From the sequence record PQ511146.1: a stretch of DNA of 64,000 bases, one strand, 5' to 3'. The DNA is from Escherichia phage NHEP1. Positions 10,906-17,821 of the stretch are shown here, one piece after another; position 1 is the first letter of the stretch; each line of letters starts with the position of its first letter. The position numbers and the translations under genes are program-made. Under the pieces are notes generated by a model that saw only the letters and a list, made by a program, of their open reading frames with translations, did not search any database and was not told the DNA's origin.

Positions 10906-10980
10906 TGGTGGCCCTGGGTGGAATTGAACCACCGTCTGGCGATTATGAGTCGCTTGCTTGAACCTTCCAGCTACAGGGCC
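10906..10980 (-). tRNA. tRNA-Met or tRNA-Ile2 (anticodon CAU)
   Basis: Manual fold: acceptor GGCCCTG/CAGGGCC, anticodon loop CTCATAA, T arm GGTGG-TTCAATT-CCACC, encoded CCA. Confidence 0.75.
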
Positions 10981-10981
10981 A

Positions 10982-11057
10982 TGGTGCTGATGGCAGGACT
11001 TGAACCTGCAACCTATTGATTACAAATCAATTGCACTACCAATTGTGCTACATCAGC
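10982..11057 (-). tRNA. tRNA-Thr (anticodon UGU)
   Basis: Manual fold: acceptor GCTGATG/CATCAGC, D stem GCAC/GTGC, anticodon stem ATTGA/TCAAT with loop TTTGTAA, T arm GCAGG-TTCAAGT-CCTGC, CCA. Confidence 0.85.
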
Positions 11058-11063
11058 AAAAGG

Positions 11064-11160
11064 TGCTAGGTGATGGAATCGAACCACCTATGTATTCAAC
11101 GACTACCTCGTCTATTTTCAGGATTAAAAATCCTCGCCCTTGCCAAAGGGCTTACCTAGC
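11064..11160 (-). tRNA. atypical tRNA-like gene (anticodon-loop-like UUUUUAA, possible tRNA-Lys-UUU variant or pseudogene) with about 30-nt extra region
   Basis: Good acceptor (GCTAGGT/ACCTAGC), D arm (GCCC-TTTGGCAA-GGGC) and T arm (GGTGG-TTCGATT-CCATC), but only a 4-bp anticodon stem (AGGA/TCCT), 97 nt long, no encoded CCA. Confidence 0.4.
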
Positions 11161-11463: not shown

Positions 11464-11551
11464 TGGTGGTGAGTGATGGAGTCGAACCACCCGAATCGCA
11501 ATGATAACAGATTTACAGTCTGCCCCGCTACCCCTACGGAATTAACTCACC
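11464..11551 (-). tRNA. tRNA-Tyr (anticodon GUA), class II
   Basis: Acceptor GGTGAGT/ACTCACC, anticodon stem-loop GCAGA-CTGTAAA-TCTGT (as in E. coli tRNA-Tyr), T arm GGTGG-TTCGACT-CCATC, CCA; D arm could not be cleanly folded by hand. Confidence 0.7.
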
Positions 11552-11681
11552 TAAATACTAATATTTAAATTCTTTTTAAAATAGCTAGTGTTCTAACCAC
11601 TAACTATGAGGTATCGGTAAAGTGGTTACCGCCACTTGCCGAAGATTTACTCTGCTAAAGTAAGCTACATTAAAAAGAACT

Positions 11682-11756: not shown

Positions 11757-11852
11757 ACTGGGTGGCTTTCTTTTACACCTGAGCCGCCAGAAAAGGTGGG
11801 AGACCATGTTTATAATATTACACTGTTAGGCAAAGTTTGTCAAGAAAATATT

Positions 11853-14695: not shown

Positions 14696-15250
14696 TTACT
14701 CCCCGCTGTCAATAGCAAGACTCATTGCAATACGGTATGCCTCTTCTAATGGTAAGAGTCTCCCCCACACATCCCAACCGACATCAAACTGCCTGCCAAA
14801 CAACTGCTGCGTGGTTCCGTGAGCATGACCGAACAGTTGGACTGATCCGTGAGGCTTTCTGTTCCACTTTGCAAACTGGTAATGGCTCATACAGATCAAA
14901 TTCTTGTTGTGGCGAAGCTCGTAATAATCTACAACCTCATGACCGAACTCTTTCATAATTCTGACAGTCGTCCTTGTGTCATGGTTACCACGAACAAGAA
15001 TAATATGTCCGTTCAACATATTTAGAACATCTGGAAGCAATTTGTTGATATTCTTATCATTAGTGCACGCAATATCCCCCAAGTGAAACACAGTGTCTGC
15101 AGGTGACACAACAGAGTTCCACTTGGTGATGATTCCCGCATTCATACTGTCAAGATTGTGATCATACTGAGATCTGTGTTTTTGACATGAGTCGAACTCC
15201 ATTACCCGCTGGTGGAGAAAGTGTGTGTCGCTTGTTACAAAGTATTTCAT
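14696..15250 (-). CDS. calcineurin-like metallophosphoesterase (RNA/DNA end-healing phosphatase candidate)
   Basis: ORF trimmed to ATG 15248-15250 (MKYFVTSDTHF...); motifs SDTHF, GDIA, GNHD typical of the metallophosphoesterase fold. Confidence 0.7.
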   Translation of the reverse strand: MKYFVTSDTHFLHQRVMEFDSCQKHRSQYDHNLDSMNAGIITKWNSVVSPADTVFHLGDIACTNDKNINKLLPDVLNMLNGHIILVRGNHDTRTTVRIMKEFGHEVVDYYELRHNKNLICMSHYQFAKWNRKPHGSVQLFGHAHGTTQQLFGRQFDVGWDVWGRLLPLEEAYRIAMSLAIDSGE

Positions 15251-15257
15251 ACATTCC

Positions 15258-15668
15258 TCATTTAAGTTTAATGCAGTTTTTAAGCTGGCGTTCCATACGA
15301 TCCACAACCCTGTCTGGAACATCATGAATGCTTTTATTACCATGGCGGTTTTCAACCACGATCACGGTATAACTATATCCATGACTGATCGCCATGTCAA
15401 TATATTCTTGCACATATTTTTCTTTTGTAAACGTATTACTTACCACGATACGGTCGTAGCCCATACGCATCATATCTTCTACGTTATCTTTGCACCATTT
15501 TGCTGCAAGTGTTACTTTACTTGCATCCCAATTGTAATTGCCGTCATCGTCGTACCAGAACATATCGTTCTCAAAATGTGGATACAGACCTTCTAAAGAT
15601 AGCGCATTTGCCAGTGTTGATTTGCCAGACCCTGGTAGACCACGCACGATATATAGCATTTTAGACAT
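15258..15668 (-). CDS. P-loop polynucleotide kinase-like protein
   Basis: ORF trimmed to MSKMLYIVRGLPGSGKST; Walker A and overall layout resemble the T4 PNK kinase domain; directly upstream of the phosphoesterase. Confidence 0.6.
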   Translation of the reverse strand: MSKMLYIVRGLPGSGKSTLANALSLEGLYPHFENDMFWYDDDGNYNWDASKVTLAAKWCKDNVEDMMRMGYDRIVVSNTFTKEKYVQEYIDMAISHGYSYTVIVVENRHGNKSIHDVPDRVVDRMERQLKNCIKLK

Positions 15669-15786
15669 AGTAACTCTCCGTTTTAATTTTAATGATAGTA
15701 TACCTAACTGTTTTGTTAATTTCAAGTGTTGACACCAGGTTATTTGTGTGGCAGAATAAAGGGACAAAATGACAAATGAGGAATGT

Positions 15787-16704
15787 ATGATGAAGTATTT
15801 TAATGCAGACGACCTAGTTGACAAAGGTCTTGTAACCAGCAGATATTACCCGGATCTTGGGTTAAAGATCTATAAATATGCCAGAAAAGTATTCTACAAC
15901 AATTTATGGCATTTGTCTCATCGTTTGCTGGAGTGCCGAGGCATTGTTGTCGGTAATGAAGGAAATGTTGTGGCATGGCCCTTCACAAAAGTGTTTAACT
16001 TGGGAGAAAATTCCACCAACCTGCCTGACAATAAACTTGTGACGGCGGTAGAGAAAAAGAACGGATTCCTTGGTGTGGTATCATCTCATAAAGGTGAACT
16101 ATTGTTCTCAACAACCGGGTCTCTTGATTCTCCATATTGTAACCTTGCAAAGGAAACAATCCATGAGCAATGTGGTAATTTAGATCTTATCAAGAGGGTT
16201 ATGGGCCATGAAAACATGACATTCATGTTTGAAATTTGTCACCCTTCAGATCCGCATATTGTTCAGGAAGATCATGGCGCATATTTGATAGGTTGCAGAT
16301 ATAATGATTCTGGAATAATGCTACCAGAAGCAGCTTTAGATGGGATTGCCAAATACCTTGGTGCAAAACGTCCTCACACTGTGCGTGAAATTCCGTTCAG
16401 CTATGCAAAAGAATTAGCTGCAGAAACAAGAGGTGAAGGGTATATGATTCGTAAGCCTTACTACCCTTATGATCTGCAGCTGAAGATCAAGTCTCCATAC
16501 TATTTGGCACGGAAGGCCGTAATGAGGGGTAAAGCTTGGAAGATTTGGGATGATGATATCTTTAAACGTGTTGACGAAGAGTTTTATGGCATGGTAAACT
16601 TCATTCGTAGCAATTACACAGAAGATGTGTGGAACTGCCTCCTGGAGCAAGAACGTCGTGAGATACTTGACTGCTATTTCCACAACGAGGACTATATGCA
16701 ATGA
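15787..16704 (+). CDS. RNA ligase-like nucleotidyltransferase
   Basis: GAGGA RBS then ATG 15787; motif I-like EKKNGF (KxNG), motif IV-like EGYMIRK, downstream KIKSP; divergent from the kinase/phosphatase pair. Confidence 0.55.
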   Translation: MMKYFNADDLVDKGLVTSRYYPDLGLKIYKYARKVFYNNLWHLSHRLLECRGIVVGNEGNVVAWPFTKVFNLGENSTNLPDNKLVTAVEKKNGFLGVVSSHKGELLFSTTGSLDSPYCNLAKETIHEQCGNLDLIKRVMGHENMTFMFEICHPSDPHIVQEDHGAYLIGCRYNDSGIMLPEAALDGIAKYLGAKRPHTVREIPFSYAKELAAETRGEGYMIRKPYYPYDLQLKIKSPYYLARKAVMRGKAWKIWDDDIFKRVDEEFYGMVNFIRSNYTEDVWNCLLEQERREILDCYFHNEDYMQ

Positions 16705-17051
16705 AGAAGTTGATTGTGTGGCTGGATGACTTGAGAGATCCGTCAAATTATGGGCTCCCAGATGCTCTTTGGCTAAAGAATTCCTCTGAGTTTATGGATT
16801 TTATTAACGATAATGGAAAGCTCTACAGGCGCGTTTCTGAGTGGCACATGGACAACGACCTTGGAGAGGTATTTGAAGGGTACGATTGCCTATCTATGCT
16901 GGAGGAAAAATTTGTATTTGGTAAGCCTCCTGTAGTTGACAACGTGAAGATTTTCGTGCATACTTCTAACCCATCAGCGGCTCGTAAATTCATGCTTGCT
17001 GCTGACTCGTTTAAAAAGTTTGGAATAGAGATTAAACAAAACATCTACTGA
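16701..17051 (+). CDS. hypothetical protein
   Basis: 116-aa ORF overlapping stop of RNA ligase gene (coupled); no confident motif. Confidence 0.45.
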   Translation: MKKLIVWLDDLRDPSNYGLPDALWLKNSSEFMDFINDNGKLYRRVSEWHMDNDLGEVFEGYDCLSMLEEKFVFGKPPVVDNVKIFVHTSNPSAARKFMLAADSFKKFGIEIKQNIY

Positions 17052-17059
17052 GGACACTT

Positions 17060-17821
17060 ATGCGACGACTGATCATTATCTCCGGTGCTGGTTTGAGCGC
17101 TGAATCTGGTATCCCCACTTTCCGATCTGGTGGCACTGCAATGTGGGAGAATTTCAGCATCGATGAGGTGTGTAACATCCACACCTTTGCCAAGAACTAC
17201 TATAAGGTGCATGACTTTTACAATGCACGGCGTGTAGCTCTGGGCAGTGTTGATCCTAACCTTGCACATCTCCGGATCGCTGAGTGGTATTCACGCTGGT
17301 CTGGTCGTGTGATCAACCTGACAACCAATGTAGATGATTTGCTGGAGCGTGCTGGTGTAAAACATGAAGATATTTTACATGTCCACGGATATTTGCCAGA
17401 AATAGTCTACGAGGATGATGAAGGGAGTGACGTCATTAAAGACATTGGATACTCTGAGGTAGACGCAAGCAAGTATACTTGGGTTAAGCCTAATGTAGTG
17501 TTTTTCGGAGAAGTAGCTCCAAAGTATACAGACATGTATGACCTGTTGACTTCTCTGACGAGCAATGATATGGTTATCCTTGTAGGGTGCTCCAACACAG
17601 TTATCAATTTTAACTGGGAGCTATTTCCTGCCTGTAATAAGGGAACCAAACTGCTGATCGTCAACAAATACGACTCACAGCATTTAGGGGAGAATGGCAT
17701 TTCACGTAGTGACATTTACCAGTATGAGGATCGCGGCATCCCAGTTTGGTTTAACGGGGCGGTTGACGCTTTCTCTGATAAAACATTTATTGACATCGTA
17801 GAAAACTTTATGGAACTGTAA
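17060..17821 (+). CDS. Sir2-family (sirtuin-like) NAD-dependent protein
   Basis: N-terminal GAGLSAESGIPTFR (sirtuin Rossmann signature), TTNVDDL (TQNID-like), HVHG motif; GAGGA RBS. Confidence 0.75.
   Translation: MRRLIIISGAGLSAESGIPTFRSGGTAMWENFSIDEVCNIHTFAKNYYKVHDFYNARRVALGSVDPNLAHLRIAEWYSRWSGRVINLTTNVDDLLERAGVKHEDILHVHGYLPEIVYEDDEGSDVIKDIGYSEVDASKYTWVKPNVVFFGEVAPKYTDMYDLLTSLTSNDMVILVGCSNTVINFNWELFPACNKGTKLLIVNKYDSQHLGENGISRSDIYQYEDRGIPVWFNGAVDAFSDKTFIDIVENFMEL

What the first reader, a model, noticed from the sequence alone, without database searches (positions are those of the whole stretch)
11064..11160. Atypical tRNA-like gene with a UUU-type anticodon loop and a long extra region
Among six well-folded tRNAs, this element has canonical acceptor, D and T arms but only a 4-bp anticodon stem with loop UUUUUAA (U33, purine-37, anticodon UUU if read conventionally) and about 30 nt between anticodon and T arms, giving 97 nt. 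tRNA-Lys(UUU) is the classic target of the PrrC anticodon nuclease, so a structurally altered Lys-like tRNA next to an RNA-repair module could be a nuclease-resistant replacement or decoy; it could equally be a pseudogene.
Basis: partly seen in the sequence, partly recalled or inferred. Interest (0 to 1): 0.55.

Follow-up and report, generated by a model that had tools for sequence, protein, structure and literature searches.

The report
Conserved non-decoding tRNA-shaped phage RNA
The "odd lysine tRNA" is a real, strongly conserved tRNA-shaped RNA gene found in rV5-like and phi92-like phages, but comparison of relatives shows it has no conserved anticodon, so it is most likely a tRNA mimic of unknown target, not a lysine tRNA or a dead gene.

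Summary
The window is a Vequintavirus (rV5-like coliphage). At 11064-11160 (- strand), inside a seven-gene tRNA operon, lies a 97-nt tRNA-like gene (Rfam tRNA 35.5 bits; ARAGORN "tRNA-???"). I collected 28 distinct homologues from five Vequintavirinae genera, from Justusliebigvirus (Stephanstirmvirinae) and from unclassified metagenome contigs. A covariance model scores them at 85-112 bits, against 37 bits or less for everything else.

Covariation is strong. 98.5% of cells are paired and 14 of 24 tested pairs show compensatory changes, including the tertiary pair G19:C56 <-> U19:A56. So this is a selected, L-shaped RNA and not a pseudogene.

The "anticodon" hairpin is a 5-bp stem closing a loop of 5-6 nt, and the loop sequence differs between genera (UUUUA, UUAUA, CAUCA, CAUCCA, AUCAA, AUCGA...). 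U33 occurs only in Vequintavirus and Avunavirus, and the discriminator base varies (A/U/C). The Lys(UUU) reading is therefore peculiar to one genus and is not a conserved identity.

The D arm can be drawn like that of tRNA-Sec (6 bp plus a tetraloop). A long extra arm is flanked by invariant GAAAA and AUAC motifs.

GenBank labels the element tRNA-Lys, tRNA-OTHER, tRNA-TERM or nothing, and I found no paper describing it. The most likely role is a tRNA mimic processed like a tRNA. Its target is unknown, and a decoy role against an anticodon nuclease is neither excluded nor supported.

The parts
11064..11160 (-). Whole tRNA-like RNA gene (97 nt, from G1 to discriminator A)
   Evidence: Rfam tRNA 35.5 bits; family model R1 99.7 bits; MFE cloverleaf plus extra hairpin, z = -4.09
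11154..11160 (-). Acceptor stem, 5' strand (GCUAGGU); pairs with 11065-11071
   Evidence: 7 of 7 pairs. In the family, 4 of the 7 pairs show compensatory changes and 100% of cells are paired
11136..11151 (-). D arm, GCCC-UUUGGCAA-GGGC. It can be drawn as 4 bp plus an 8-nt loop, or as 6 bp plus a UGGC tetraloop as in tRNA-Sec. It is preceded by A8 A9 (11152-11153)
   Evidence: 3 of 4 stem pairs covary. U14:A21 and U15:A20 are invariant and are paired in the MFE and RNAalifold structures. G19 covaries with T-loop position 56
11120..11134 (-). 'Anticodon' hairpin, AGGAU-UUUUA-AUCCU (5 bp plus a 5-nt loop). The alternative drawing is 4 bp plus UUUUUAA
   Evidence: The 4th pair occurs as AU, CG and UA. 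The 5th pair is UA in 10, CG in 6 and C.A in 3 of 19 distinct cores. The loop sequence is not conserved
11113..11119 (-). J1 linker GAAAAUA (GAAAA is invariant in the family)
   Evidence: Alignments A4, A6 and A7
11098..11112 (-). Extra (variable-region) hairpin, GACGA-GGUAG-UCGUU
   Evidence: A hairpin is predicted at this place in 26 of 30 sequence variants despite unrelated sequences (the other 4 folded differently or weakly), and in the full-length folds of 7 representatives. Compensatory A:U to G:C change between Vequintavirus and Avunavirus
11089..11097 (-). J2 linker GAAUACAUA (AUAC is invariant in the family)
   Evidence: Alignments A4 and A6
11072..11088 (-). T arm, GGUGG-UUCGAUU-CCAUC, with a canonical T-loop
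   Evidence: 3 of 5 pairs covary and 100% of cells are paired. C56 changes to A56 exactly where G19 changes to U19
11058..11071 (-). Acceptor 3' strand (11065-11071), discriminator A (11064), then CC-UUUU spacer (11058-11063) running up to the first base of tRNA-Thr
   Evidence: Sequence. In most other genera N73 is followed by an encoded CCA
10982..11057 (-). tRNA-Thr(UGU), 6 nt downstream in the same transcript (context)
   Evidence: ARAGORN; Rfam 79.5 bits
11259..11349 (-). tRNA-Ser(UGA), 98 nt upstream (context)
   Evidence: ARAGORN
11815..11843 (-). Sigma-70-like promoter of the tRNA operon (TTGACA-17-TAATAT), upstream of tRNA-Arg
   Evidence: Consensus scan, 10 of 12. The same site is annotated P(tRNA) in rV5

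Best explanation
This is a member of a conserved family of 97-107-nt tRNA-shaped RNAs that do not decode. The family is carried in the tRNA operons of Vequintavirinae, Justusliebigvirus and one unclassified metagenomic lineage.

Shown: it keeps a 7-bp acceptor stem, a 5-bp T stem with a canonical T-loop, a D arm whose G18/G19 still match the T-loop, and in most members an encoded N73-CCA end. Its anticodon arm is a 5-bp stem closed on a 5-6-nt loop of non-conserved sequence. Between that arm and the T arm it carries a 31-41-nt extra domain: invariant GAAAA, a hairpin of free sequence, then invariant AUAC.

Inferred: it is transcribed with the tRNAs from the operon promoter. RNase P and 3' trimming or CCA addition release it, because its ends lie 2-6 nt from neighbouring tRNAs. 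It folds into an L shape.

Inferred with less certainty: it acts by mimicry. It would occupy or titrate a protein that recognises the tRNA body (acceptor/T minihelix plus elbow) together with the conserved extra domain, for example a host tRNA-targeting defence or tRNA-processing/modifying enzyme. It would not read AAA codons. The Lys-like loop in this genus is a lineage-specific state of a fast-evolving loop.
For: Family and separation: 28 distinct members. Model R1 scores them at 84.9-112.2 bits. The next best hits reach 37 bits, and ordinary tRNAs reach 28.6 bits or less. A further scan of 100 viral loci added no members.

Structure: 98.5% of cells are paired and 14 of 24 pairs have compensatory changes. 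The covariation score is 0.477 against 0.184 in shuffles (0 of 500 shuffles reach it). Sliding the 3' partners gives 35-47% paired. G19:C56 in 15 cores and U19:A56 in 4. The window element and five of six other members folded independently gave the same five-helix MFE structure; arall gave the same helices except the D arm. z ranged from -2.5 to -4.6.

Non-decoding: loop length is 5-6 nt and the loop sequence varies. U33 is present only in Vequintavirus and Avunavirus. N73 is A, U or C, and differs even between near-identical Avunavirus copies. ARAGORN finds a usable anticodon in no member. Rfam passes threshold only for the Vequintavirus copy.

Processing context: the element sits 6 nt upstream of tRNA-Thr here and 2 nt after an upstream tRNA's CCA in other genera. 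The operon has a promoter, and no convincing internal terminator was found.

Not host-derived: there is no match in 5,426 E. coli genomes, and none in 185,579 species genomes with two patterns.
Against: I have no expression, end-mapping or aminoacylation data. The mimicry target is unidentified, and no co-varying protein partner was found. The neighbours in the distant L033 lineage are ORFans. No antisense target was found in the window.

In Vequintavirus the 7-nt drawing UUUUUAA differs from the E. coli tRNA-Lys loop CUUUUAA at one position (E. coli sequence recalled from memory). So a genus-specific decoding or decoy role cannot be excluded from sequence alone.

Phage V18 has lost the element by recombination with tRNA-Tyr and is still a viable isolate. 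The function is therefore dispensable under some conditions.
Confidence: 0.6

Rival explanations
1. Anticodon-nuclease decoy. The hairpin loop imitates the anticodon loop of the host tRNA attacked by a defence nuclease (PrrC or PARIS AriB for tRNA-Lys). The RNA soaks up or blocks the nuclease while the Pnkp/Rnl1 module repairs the damage.
For: In Vequintavirus the loop plus closing pair (GA-UUUUUAA-UC) is nearly identical to the tRNA-Lys(UUU) anticodon loop (E. coli sequence from memory). The loop evolves fast on a conserved body, as expected in an arms race. Kinase, phosphoesterase and Rnl1 genes lie 3.5-5.5 kb away. Phage tRNAs are known to counter PARIS and retron Eco7 (background section of PMC13015707).
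Against: Most members have loops (CAUCCA, AUCAA, AUCGA) that resemble no host anticodon loop and lack U33. The closing pair covaries, which argues for a closed 5-6-nt loop. The invariant parts are GAAAA, AUAC and the tRNA body, not the loop. The ligase is far more widespread than the element (678 records against about 200). A catalytic nuclease is poorly countered by a stoichiometric decoy.
Confidence: 0.12
2. A functional but structurally odd tRNA-Lys(UUU) that supplies or replaces host tRNA-Lys, as annotated in the BASEL phage records.
For: It is annotated tRNA-Lys (AAA) in several GenBank records. Rfam aligns a 7-nt loop with U33, UUU and A37. The discriminator is A73. Vequintavirus has no other tRNA-Lys.
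Against: The anticodon arm has 15 nt instead of 17, so the stem is 4 bp in that drawing. Avunavirus orthologues, about 93% identical over the 96 nt that align, read UAU, and other genera have no triplet in register. N73 is not conserved. The element has A8/U14 and a 31-nt extra region unknown in tRNA-Lys. BLAST finds no similarity to any E. coli tRNA gene. Justusliebigvirus carries both the element and a normal tRNA-Lys(UUU).
Confidence: 0.05
3. A tRNA-Sec/allo-tRNA-like adaptor. It would be charged independently of the anticodon (for example by SerRS through the long extra arm) and would act as a suppressor or recoding tRNA (UCA in Henunavirus and Justusliebigvirus, UUA in a shifted Vequintavirus reading).
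For: A 6-bp D stem with a tetraloop and a long extra arm resemble tRNA-Sec and allo-tRNAs (PMC5389517). The Hena1 copy scores 39 bits on Rfam tRNA-Sec and is annotated tRNA-sup(tca). Allo-tRNAs also show highly diverse anticodons, including UAU.
Against: The acceptor/T configuration is 7/5, not 8/5, 8/4 or 9/3. The anticodon stem is shorter, not longer. Position 33 is A or C where UCA occurs. All tRNA-Sec scores are below the gathering score of 47. The extra hairpin is separated from the core by linkers of 7 and 9 nt. These phages give long ORFs under the standard code.
Confidence: 0.07
4. A pure processing signal ('tRNA punctuation'). The tRNA-like fold exists only to recruit RNase P and 3' processing enzymes and so separate the operon transcript.
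For: It is embedded in a tightly spaced tRNA operon. The acceptor/T minihelix and the elbow, which RNase P recognises, are the best conserved structural parts.
Against: The flanking genes are themselves tRNAs and supply their own RNase P sites. The idea does not explain the covarying anticodon hairpin, the maintained extra hairpin, the invariant GAAAA and AUAC motifs, or the encoded CCA.
Confidence: 0.08
5. A decaying tRNA pseudogene with no function.
For: tRNA finders fail on it or disagree about it. It was lost in phage V18.
Against: 14 of 24 pairs show compensatory substitutions, including a tertiary pair. 98.5% of cells are paired across lineages whose element sequences are only about 70% identical.
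Confidence: 0.03

Closest known systems
Canonical bacterial or phage elongator tRNA (Rfam RF00005), specifically tRNA-Lys(UUU)
   Same: 7-bp acceptor stem, 5-bp T stem, T54-Psi55-C56-R57-A58 loop, G18G19, G10:C25, G53:C61, location in a tRNA operon, and N73(-CCA). In this genus the loop can be drawn as UUUUUAA.
   Different: The anticodon arm is 15-16 nt, closed to a 5-6-nt loop. There is no conserved anticodon and no U33 in most members. Position 8 is A and position 14 is U, instead of U8:A14. There is a 31-41-nt extra domain with long conserved linkers. Only the Vequintavirus copy passes the Rfam threshold.
tRNA-Sec and allo-tRNAs / irregular tRNAs (Mukai et al. 2017, PMC5389517)
   Same: A D stem that can extend to 6 bp with a tetraloop, a long extra arm, highly variable 'anticodons', and possible non-translational roles. 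Some members are phage-borne.
   Different: The configuration is 7/5, not 8/5, 8/4 or 9/3. The anticodon stem is shorter rather than longer. The loop is not 7 nt. The extra arm is set off by conserved single-stranded linkers. Scores on the Rfam tRNA-Sec model are below threshold.
Phage T4 stable RNAs, species 1 and 2 (rnaC, rnaD)
   Same: Small non-tRNA RNA genes lying inside a phage tRNA cluster directly next to tRNA genes. rnaC ends in a T-arm-like hairpin. Their function has remained unknown for decades (from memory).
   Different: There is no sequence or structure homology: model R1 gives at most 10.6 bits on the T4 region. The T4 RNAs are 119-139 nt and lack the complete cloverleaf.
Bacillus cereus tRNA-Other (tRNA-like small RNA charged by LysRS1/LysRS2; cited in PMC5389517)
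   Same: A tRNA-like RNA with an aberrant anticodon arm that is not used as a normal decoder.
   Different: It is bacterial and chromosomal, with a different architecture. Aminoacylation of the phage RNA has not been tested. The GenBank label 'tRNA-OTHER' on the phage gene is only an annotation default.
Phage T5 tRNA-Lys and tRNA-Tyr, which counter PARIS and retron Eco7
   Same: Phage-encoded tRNA genes whose value lies in host defence conflicts, not in codon usage (PMC13015707).
   Different: Those are fully functional decoders that replace cleaved host tRNAs. This RNA lacks a usable anticodon loop.

Membership tests
Canonical tRNA (RF00005) | Score at or above the Rfam gathering threshold (29 bits) | tested here: inconclusive
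   The window copy scores 35.5 bits. The Mydovirus and Justusliebigvirus orthologues give no tRNA hit at E<=1. Others hit only tRNA-Sec, below threshold.
Canonical tRNA (RF00005) | Acceptor (7 bp), D, and T (5 bp plus TPsiC loop) arms with the G18G19/T-loop elbow | tested here: met
   All helices covary, and G19:C56 <-> U19:A56 covaries.
Canonical tRNA (RF00005) | 5-bp anticodon stem with a 7-nt loop, U33 and purine 37 | tested here: not met
   The arm is 5 bp plus a 5-6-nt loop, or 4 bp plus 7-8 nt. Position 33 is U only in 2 of 7 lineages.
Canonical tRNA (RF00005) | U8:A14 tertiary pair and a variable region of 4-5 nt (class I) or a directly attached arm (class II) | tested here: not met
   A8 and U14 are invariant in 19 of 19 cores. 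The extra region is 31-41 nt with linkers of 7 and 9 nt.
tRNA-Lys(UUU) | UUU anticodon and A73 conserved among orthologues | tested here: not met
   UUU occurs only in Vequintavirus. Avunavirus has UAU and the others have none. N73 is A, U or C.
tRNA-Lys(UUU) | Aminoacylation by LysRS and decoding of AAA/AAG | not testable with these tools
   Needs charging assays.
tRNA-Sec (RF01852) | 13-bp acceptor/T branch (8/5 in bacteria), 6-bp D stem with a 4-nt loop, 6-bp anticodon stem, UCA anticodon, long extra arm | tested here: not met
   The branch is 7/5. The D arm is compatible (6 bp plus 4 nt is possible). The anticodon stem is 5 bp or less. UCA appears only in some members, with A33. Best score is 39 bits against a threshold of 47.
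allo-tRNA (Mukai 2017) | 8/4 or 9/3 acceptor/T configuration | tested here: not met
   Nucleotide 8 (A) cannot pair with the last T-stem nucleotide (C), and the T stem is 5 bp in all members.
T4 rnaC/rnaD stable RNAs | Sequence or structure homology to the T4 species 1 and 2 RNAs | tested here: not met
   R1 gives at most 10.6 bits on T4 70.9-71.2 kb with filters off.
tmRNA / YrlA (other tRNA-like RNAs) | Match to the Rfam or ARAGORN models | tested here: not met
   ARAGORN finds no tmRNA. No YrlA or tmRNA hit overlaps the element.
New family defined here (model R1) | G1..A8..U14UUGKYAA..G26-[5-bp stem, 5-6-nt loop]-GAAAA-[hairpin]-AUAC-[T arm]-acceptor | tested here: met
   The window copy scores 99.7 bits (E about 4e-22) and contains all motifs.

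The most novel reading that the evidence does not exclude
The family is a phage-encoded anti-defence tRNA mimic. It would be a stable, RNase P-processed, L-shaped RNA whose conserved body and GAAAA/AUAC domain dock onto a host tRNA-targeting immune effector or sensor. Its fast-evolving hairpin loop would track the targeted anticodon loop, which is Lys-like in E. coli Vequintavirus. That would make it the first RNA-based inhibitor of an anticodon-nuclease-type defence.
Probability: 0.15. Interest if true: 0.85.

Novelty: new variant of a known kind. Interest (0 to 1): 0.58.

Why it matters
Phage tRNA genes are now understood as weapons in conflicts over the host tRNA pool. Every known example, however, is a working decoder. 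Here a tRNA-shaped RNA has kept everything except a usable anticodon loop through the divergence of two phage subfamilies, and it has gained a conserved extra domain. That points to a function based on being recognised as a tRNA, not on translating.

There is also a practical consequence. About 200 deposited genomes label this gene inconsistently (tRNA-Lys, tRNA-TERM/suppressor, tRNA-OTHER, a hypothetical protein, or nothing). This distorts tRNA counts and codon-usage analyses for phages used in therapy and biocontrol. The covariance model built here would let the family be annotated uniformly. The family also offers a compact natural example of a tRNA scaffold carrying an inserted module.

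Tried and rejected
- **ARAGORN's fold** (stem AUUUU/AAAAU, 8-nt loop, anticodon 'atcc'). The AAAAU partner has no complement in other genera, so I rejected it.
- **Origin from a neighbouring isoacceptor.** I compared the 5' 26 nt and the 3' 25 nt with 141 tRNAs from 12 loci. Nothing came close (best summed score 17, against 22-41 between family members).
- **Host origin or prophage copies.** There is no BLAST hit in 5,426 E. coli genomes. Two degenerate patterns gave no hit in 185,579 species genomes.
- **Antisense targets.** The reverse complements of J2 and of J1 plus the adjacent stem occur in the window no more often than in shuffles.
- **Homology to T4 rnaC/rnaD.** None.
- **A wider net.** Of the 116 new ones, 100 were searched with R1, and only ordinary class II tRNAs at 32-35 bits turned up.
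- **Ribozyme or other Rfam families.** No hits.
- **Specific linkage to the RNA ligase.** The ligase is present in 678 phage records, including Pseudomonas, Vibrio and Streptomyces phages that lack the element.
- **Literature.** Four searches for a description of this RNA (Vequintavirinae with tRNA-Lys or tRNA-like, phage tRNA mimics, non-canonical phage tRNAs) found nothing specific. The rV5 genome paper lists six tRNAs without it.
- **Nature of the 866-kb and 368-kb contigs.** The neighbouring ORFs have no Pfam, PHROG or phage tblastn matches apart from one RRXRR/HNH endonuclease. This is unresolved.

Full report
**Source and context.** The 1.9-kb region around the finding is 97-99% identical to Escherichia phages of the genus Vequintavirus (rV5-like myoviruses). 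On the - strand the operon reads promoter (11843-11815, annotated P(tRNA) in rV5), then tRNA-Arg(UCU) 11756-11682, tRNA-Tyr(GUA) 11551-11467, tRNA-Ser(UGA) 11349-11259, the element 11160-11064, tRNA-Thr(UGU) 11057-10982, tRNA-Met/Ile2(CAU) 10980-10906 and tRNA-Pro(UGG) 10894-10818. Genes for a P-loop kinase, a metallophosphoesterase and a T4 Rnl1-type RNA ligase, followed by a Sir2-family gene, lie at 14696-17821.

**The observation.** Rfam's tRNA model matches exactly 11064-11160 at 35.5 bits (threshold 29). It aligns the anticodon arm as a 4-bp stem with loop UUUUUAA and an insertion of about 30 nt before the T arm. ARAGORN reports 'tRNA-???' with a 4-base anticodon, using a different stem. 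The RNA folds as a cloverleaf plus one extra hairpin at -34.2 kcal/mol (z = -4.09). The description is therefore accurate.

GenBank shows how ambiguous the gene looks to software. It is labelled tRNA-Lys (BASEL phages), tRNA-OTHER, tRNA-???(atcc), tRNA-TERM/sup(tca), covered by small 'hypothetical protein' CDSs, or left unannotated as in rV5. The rV5 genome paper lists six tRNAs without it.

**Relatives.** BLAST with the window copy finds 128 phage records. Nearly all are Vequintavirus or Avunavirus at 92% identity or more, with one Seunavirus hit at 72%. Walking outwards from that copy and then from the Erwinia phage Hena1 copy brought in more lineages:
- Seunavirus (Salmonella and Cronobacter phages);
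- Mydovirus (Klebsiella and Proteus phages);
- Henunavirus (Erwinia phages);
- Justusliebigvirus of the separate subfamily Stephanstirmvirinae, where the element is unannotated.

A degenerate pattern of the invariant 5' half recovered 21 metagenome and 16 IMG/VR loci. One divergent clade sits on contigs of 866 kb and 368 kb that are full of tRNA arrays. No copy was found in 185,579 bacterial and archaeal species genomes or in 5,426 E. coli genomes.

In all there are 28 distinct sequences. A covariance model built from them (R1) scores members at 84.9-112.2 bits. The next hits are a different 104-nt tRNA-like gene of the L033 clade at 36-37 bits, and ordinary tRNAs reach 28.6 bits or less. A further pattern scan that yielded at least 120 viral loci, 100 of the 116 new ones searched with R1, added no members. 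The family is thus sharply delimited.

**Structure from comparison.** MAFFT misaligns the length-variable loop, so I spliced the fixed-length parts into gap-free 'cores' anchored on invariant G26 and GAAAA. I then counted the pairs.
- 98.5% of 456 cells form standard pairs (shuffles give 83.8%; 0 of 500 reach the observed value).
- 14 of 24 pairs have changes on both sides.
- The covariation score is 0.477 against 0.184 in shuffles.
- Sliding the 3' partners by 1-3 columns gives only 35-47% pairing and at most 2 compensated pairs.
- Every helix contributes: acceptor 4 of 7 pairs, D 3 of 4, 'anticodon' 3 of 5, T 3 of 5.
- The tertiary elbow pair covaries perfectly. D-loop UUUGGCAA goes with T-loop UUCGAUU, and UUUGUCAA goes with UUAGAUU (G19:C56 in 15 cores, U19:A56 in 4).

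The extra hairpin has unrelated sequences in different genera. RNAfold still predicted a hairpin there in 26 of 30 sequence variants of the extra region folded alone. The window element and six other members folded whole: all but arall gave the same five-helix MFE structure, and arall differed only in its D arm. This is a selected, L-shaped RNA, so the pseudogene reading is rejected.

**The anticodon arm.** What remains is a loop of 5 nt (UUUUA, UUAUA, CAUCA, AUCAA, AUCGA, AUCGC) or 6 nt (CAUCCA, CUUCCA, CCUCCA, CAGCCA).

Suppose the closing pair is opened to give 7-8 nt. The 'anticodon' is then UUU in Vequintavirus, UAU in Avunavirus (about 93% identical over the 96 nt that align), and UCA with A33 in Henunavirus and Justusliebigvirus. 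Elsewhere there is nothing in register. U33 is present in only two lineages. The discriminator is A, U or C, and differs even within Avunavirus. The whole arm is 15-16 nt instead of 17. A conserved decoding identity, lysine or otherwise, is therefore not supported.

**Other peculiarities.** A8 and U14 are invariant, the reverse of the universal U8:A14. U15 faces A48. The simplest reading is that U14:A21 and U15:A20 extend the D stem to 6 bp with an N-G-K-Y tetraloop. RNAfold and RNAalifold both draw it that way. That is the D-arm architecture of tRNA-Sec and of the 'allo-tRNAs' (PMC5389517). These columns never vary, so the two drawings cannot be told apart.

After the anticodon stem every member has GAAAA. 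Before the T stem every member has AUAC within (R)AAUAC(A/G)(U/A)(A/U). J1 ...AAUA and J2 RAAU... could form an irregular A:U / A.A / U:A / A.R extension of the extra arm. This is my inference and is untested.

Most non-Vequintavirus members encode N73-CCA. The 5' end lies 2 nt after the CCA of an upstream tRNA in those genera, and the 3' end here lies 6 nt before tRNA-Thr. This spacing implies maturation by RNase P and the normal 3' pathway (inferred).

**What it most likely does.** Three things are conserved: the acceptor/T minihelix, the elbow, and the GAAAA/AUAC junction. Two things are free to vary: the hairpin-loop sequence and the extra-hairpin sequence. That pattern fits an RNA that must be recognised and processed as a tRNA, and that must present a specific junction. 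It does not fit a decoder.

My best explanation is a non-decoding tRNA mimic that binds or titrates a tRNA-recognising protein. I cannot name the target. A decoy for a tRNA-Lys nuclease (PrrC, PARIS) is a special case that remains possible for Vequintavirus, because its loop is one base away from the E. coli tRNA-Lys loop (E. coli sequence from memory). The other genera do not fit this case, and the closed loop argues against it. The Rnl1-type ligase is present in 678 phage records of many unrelated groups, so its proximity carries little weight.

A pure processing role would not explain the conserved junction, the anticodon hairpin or the encoded CCA. Phage V18 shows that the gene can be lost. 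A recombination at GUC(A/G)UUG fused the 5' part of tRNA-Tyr to the last 46 nt of the element and deleted tRNA-Ser.

**Comparison with known kinds.** The element is not a member of canonical tRNA, because the anticodon loop, the 8:14 pair and the variable region all fail. It is not tRNA-Sec or an allo-tRNA, because it is 7/5 with a short anticodon stem and sub-threshold scores. It is not homologous to the T4 rnaC/rnaD stable RNAs, which sit next to tRNA-Arg in T4.

Functionally it is closest to those 'irregular' or tRNA-like RNAs: allo-tRNAs, many of which are inactive in translation, B. cereus tRNA-Other, and the T4 species 1 and 2 RNAs. I found no publication describing this family. I rate it a new variant of a known kind. 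The existence and structure of the family are well supported, and its function is open.

Noticed in passing
window 11552-11678 (- strand, between tRNA-Arg and tRNA-Tyr): A 127-nt insertion is present here but absent from rV5, where tRNA-Tyr starts 5 nt after tRNA-Arg. This explains the '93% coverage, 2 pieces' hits of many relatives. No Rfam or tRNA hit lies in it, and its nature is unknown.
   Followed up: partly
window 11467-11551 (-): tRNA-Tyr(GUA) is detected by Rfam (39 bits) but missed by ARAGORN in this window. ARAGORN does find the rV5 orthologue, which differs at several stem positions.
   Followed up: partly
window 10906-10980 (-): ARAGORN calls the CAU-anticodon tRNA Met, but the BASEL phage records annotate it as tRNA-Ile reading AUA (lysidine type). 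Its true identity is unresolved.
   Followed up: no
L018:1926-2000, L014:1924-2000, L015:1925-2000, L021:1929-2003 (Mydovirus/Seunavirus, directly upstream of the element): A second aberrant tRNA-like gene of about 75 nt has an anticodon loop of 6, 7 or 8 nt in different phages (..CCCAC-GAU-..GGG). It lacks U33 and purine 37. ARAGORN calls it '???(ga)', '???(agat)' or Ile(GAU). It may be another non-decoding tRNA mimic next to the first.
   Followed up: partly
L055:1155-1246 (phage V18): A chimeric gene joins the 5' part of tRNA-Tyr to the last 46 nt of the element at a GUC(A/G)UUG microhomology. tRNA-Ser, tRNA-Tyr and the element have all been lost.
   Followed up: yes
L033 (866-kb contig Ga0308161_1000008), L036 (368-kb contig), L023: These very large metagenome contigs carry the most divergent family members inside massive repeated Gly/Val/Arg/Met tRNA arrays, together with a tRNA(UCA). 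The neighbouring ORFs have no Pfam, PHROG or phage matches apart from one RRXRR/HNH endonuclease. They could be a giant phage or another element, and a non-standard genetic code is possible.
   Followed up: partly
L033:5031-5134, L036:6189-6292, L023:3794-3897; also L033:6883-7000: These are further long tRNA-like genes. One is 104 nt with U8, a CCUCAAA loop (UCA with C33) and a 36-nt extra region (36-37 bits on R1). Another, of about 115 nt, ends in a T arm plus CCA. Neither is called by ARAGORN.
   Followed up: partly
L019:2687-2765 and L018:2362-2440: Rfam tRNA hits (38.6 and 34.9 bits) in the phage arall and Mydo tRNA clusters are neither annotated nor found by ARAGORN.
   Followed up: no
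GenBank MG0656xx 'Campylobacter phage' records: Eighteen records labelled Campylobacter jejuni phages carry this locus at 97-98% identity to E. coli Vequintavirus. They are probably E. coli phages mislabelled or co-isolated.
   Followed up: no
window 11136-11151 (-): The consensus scan flags the D-arm hairpin followed by GAGGAUUUUU as terminator-like. The number of such sites in the region is no higher than in shuffles (2 against 1.8), so it is probably not a terminator.
   Followed up: partly
window 14696-17821: A metallophosphoesterase, a P-loop kinase (AAA_33/zeta-toxin-like) and an Rnl1-type RNA ligase are followed by a 116-aa ORF and a Sir2-family protein. This arrangement is conserved in the BASEL relatives.
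   Followed up: partly
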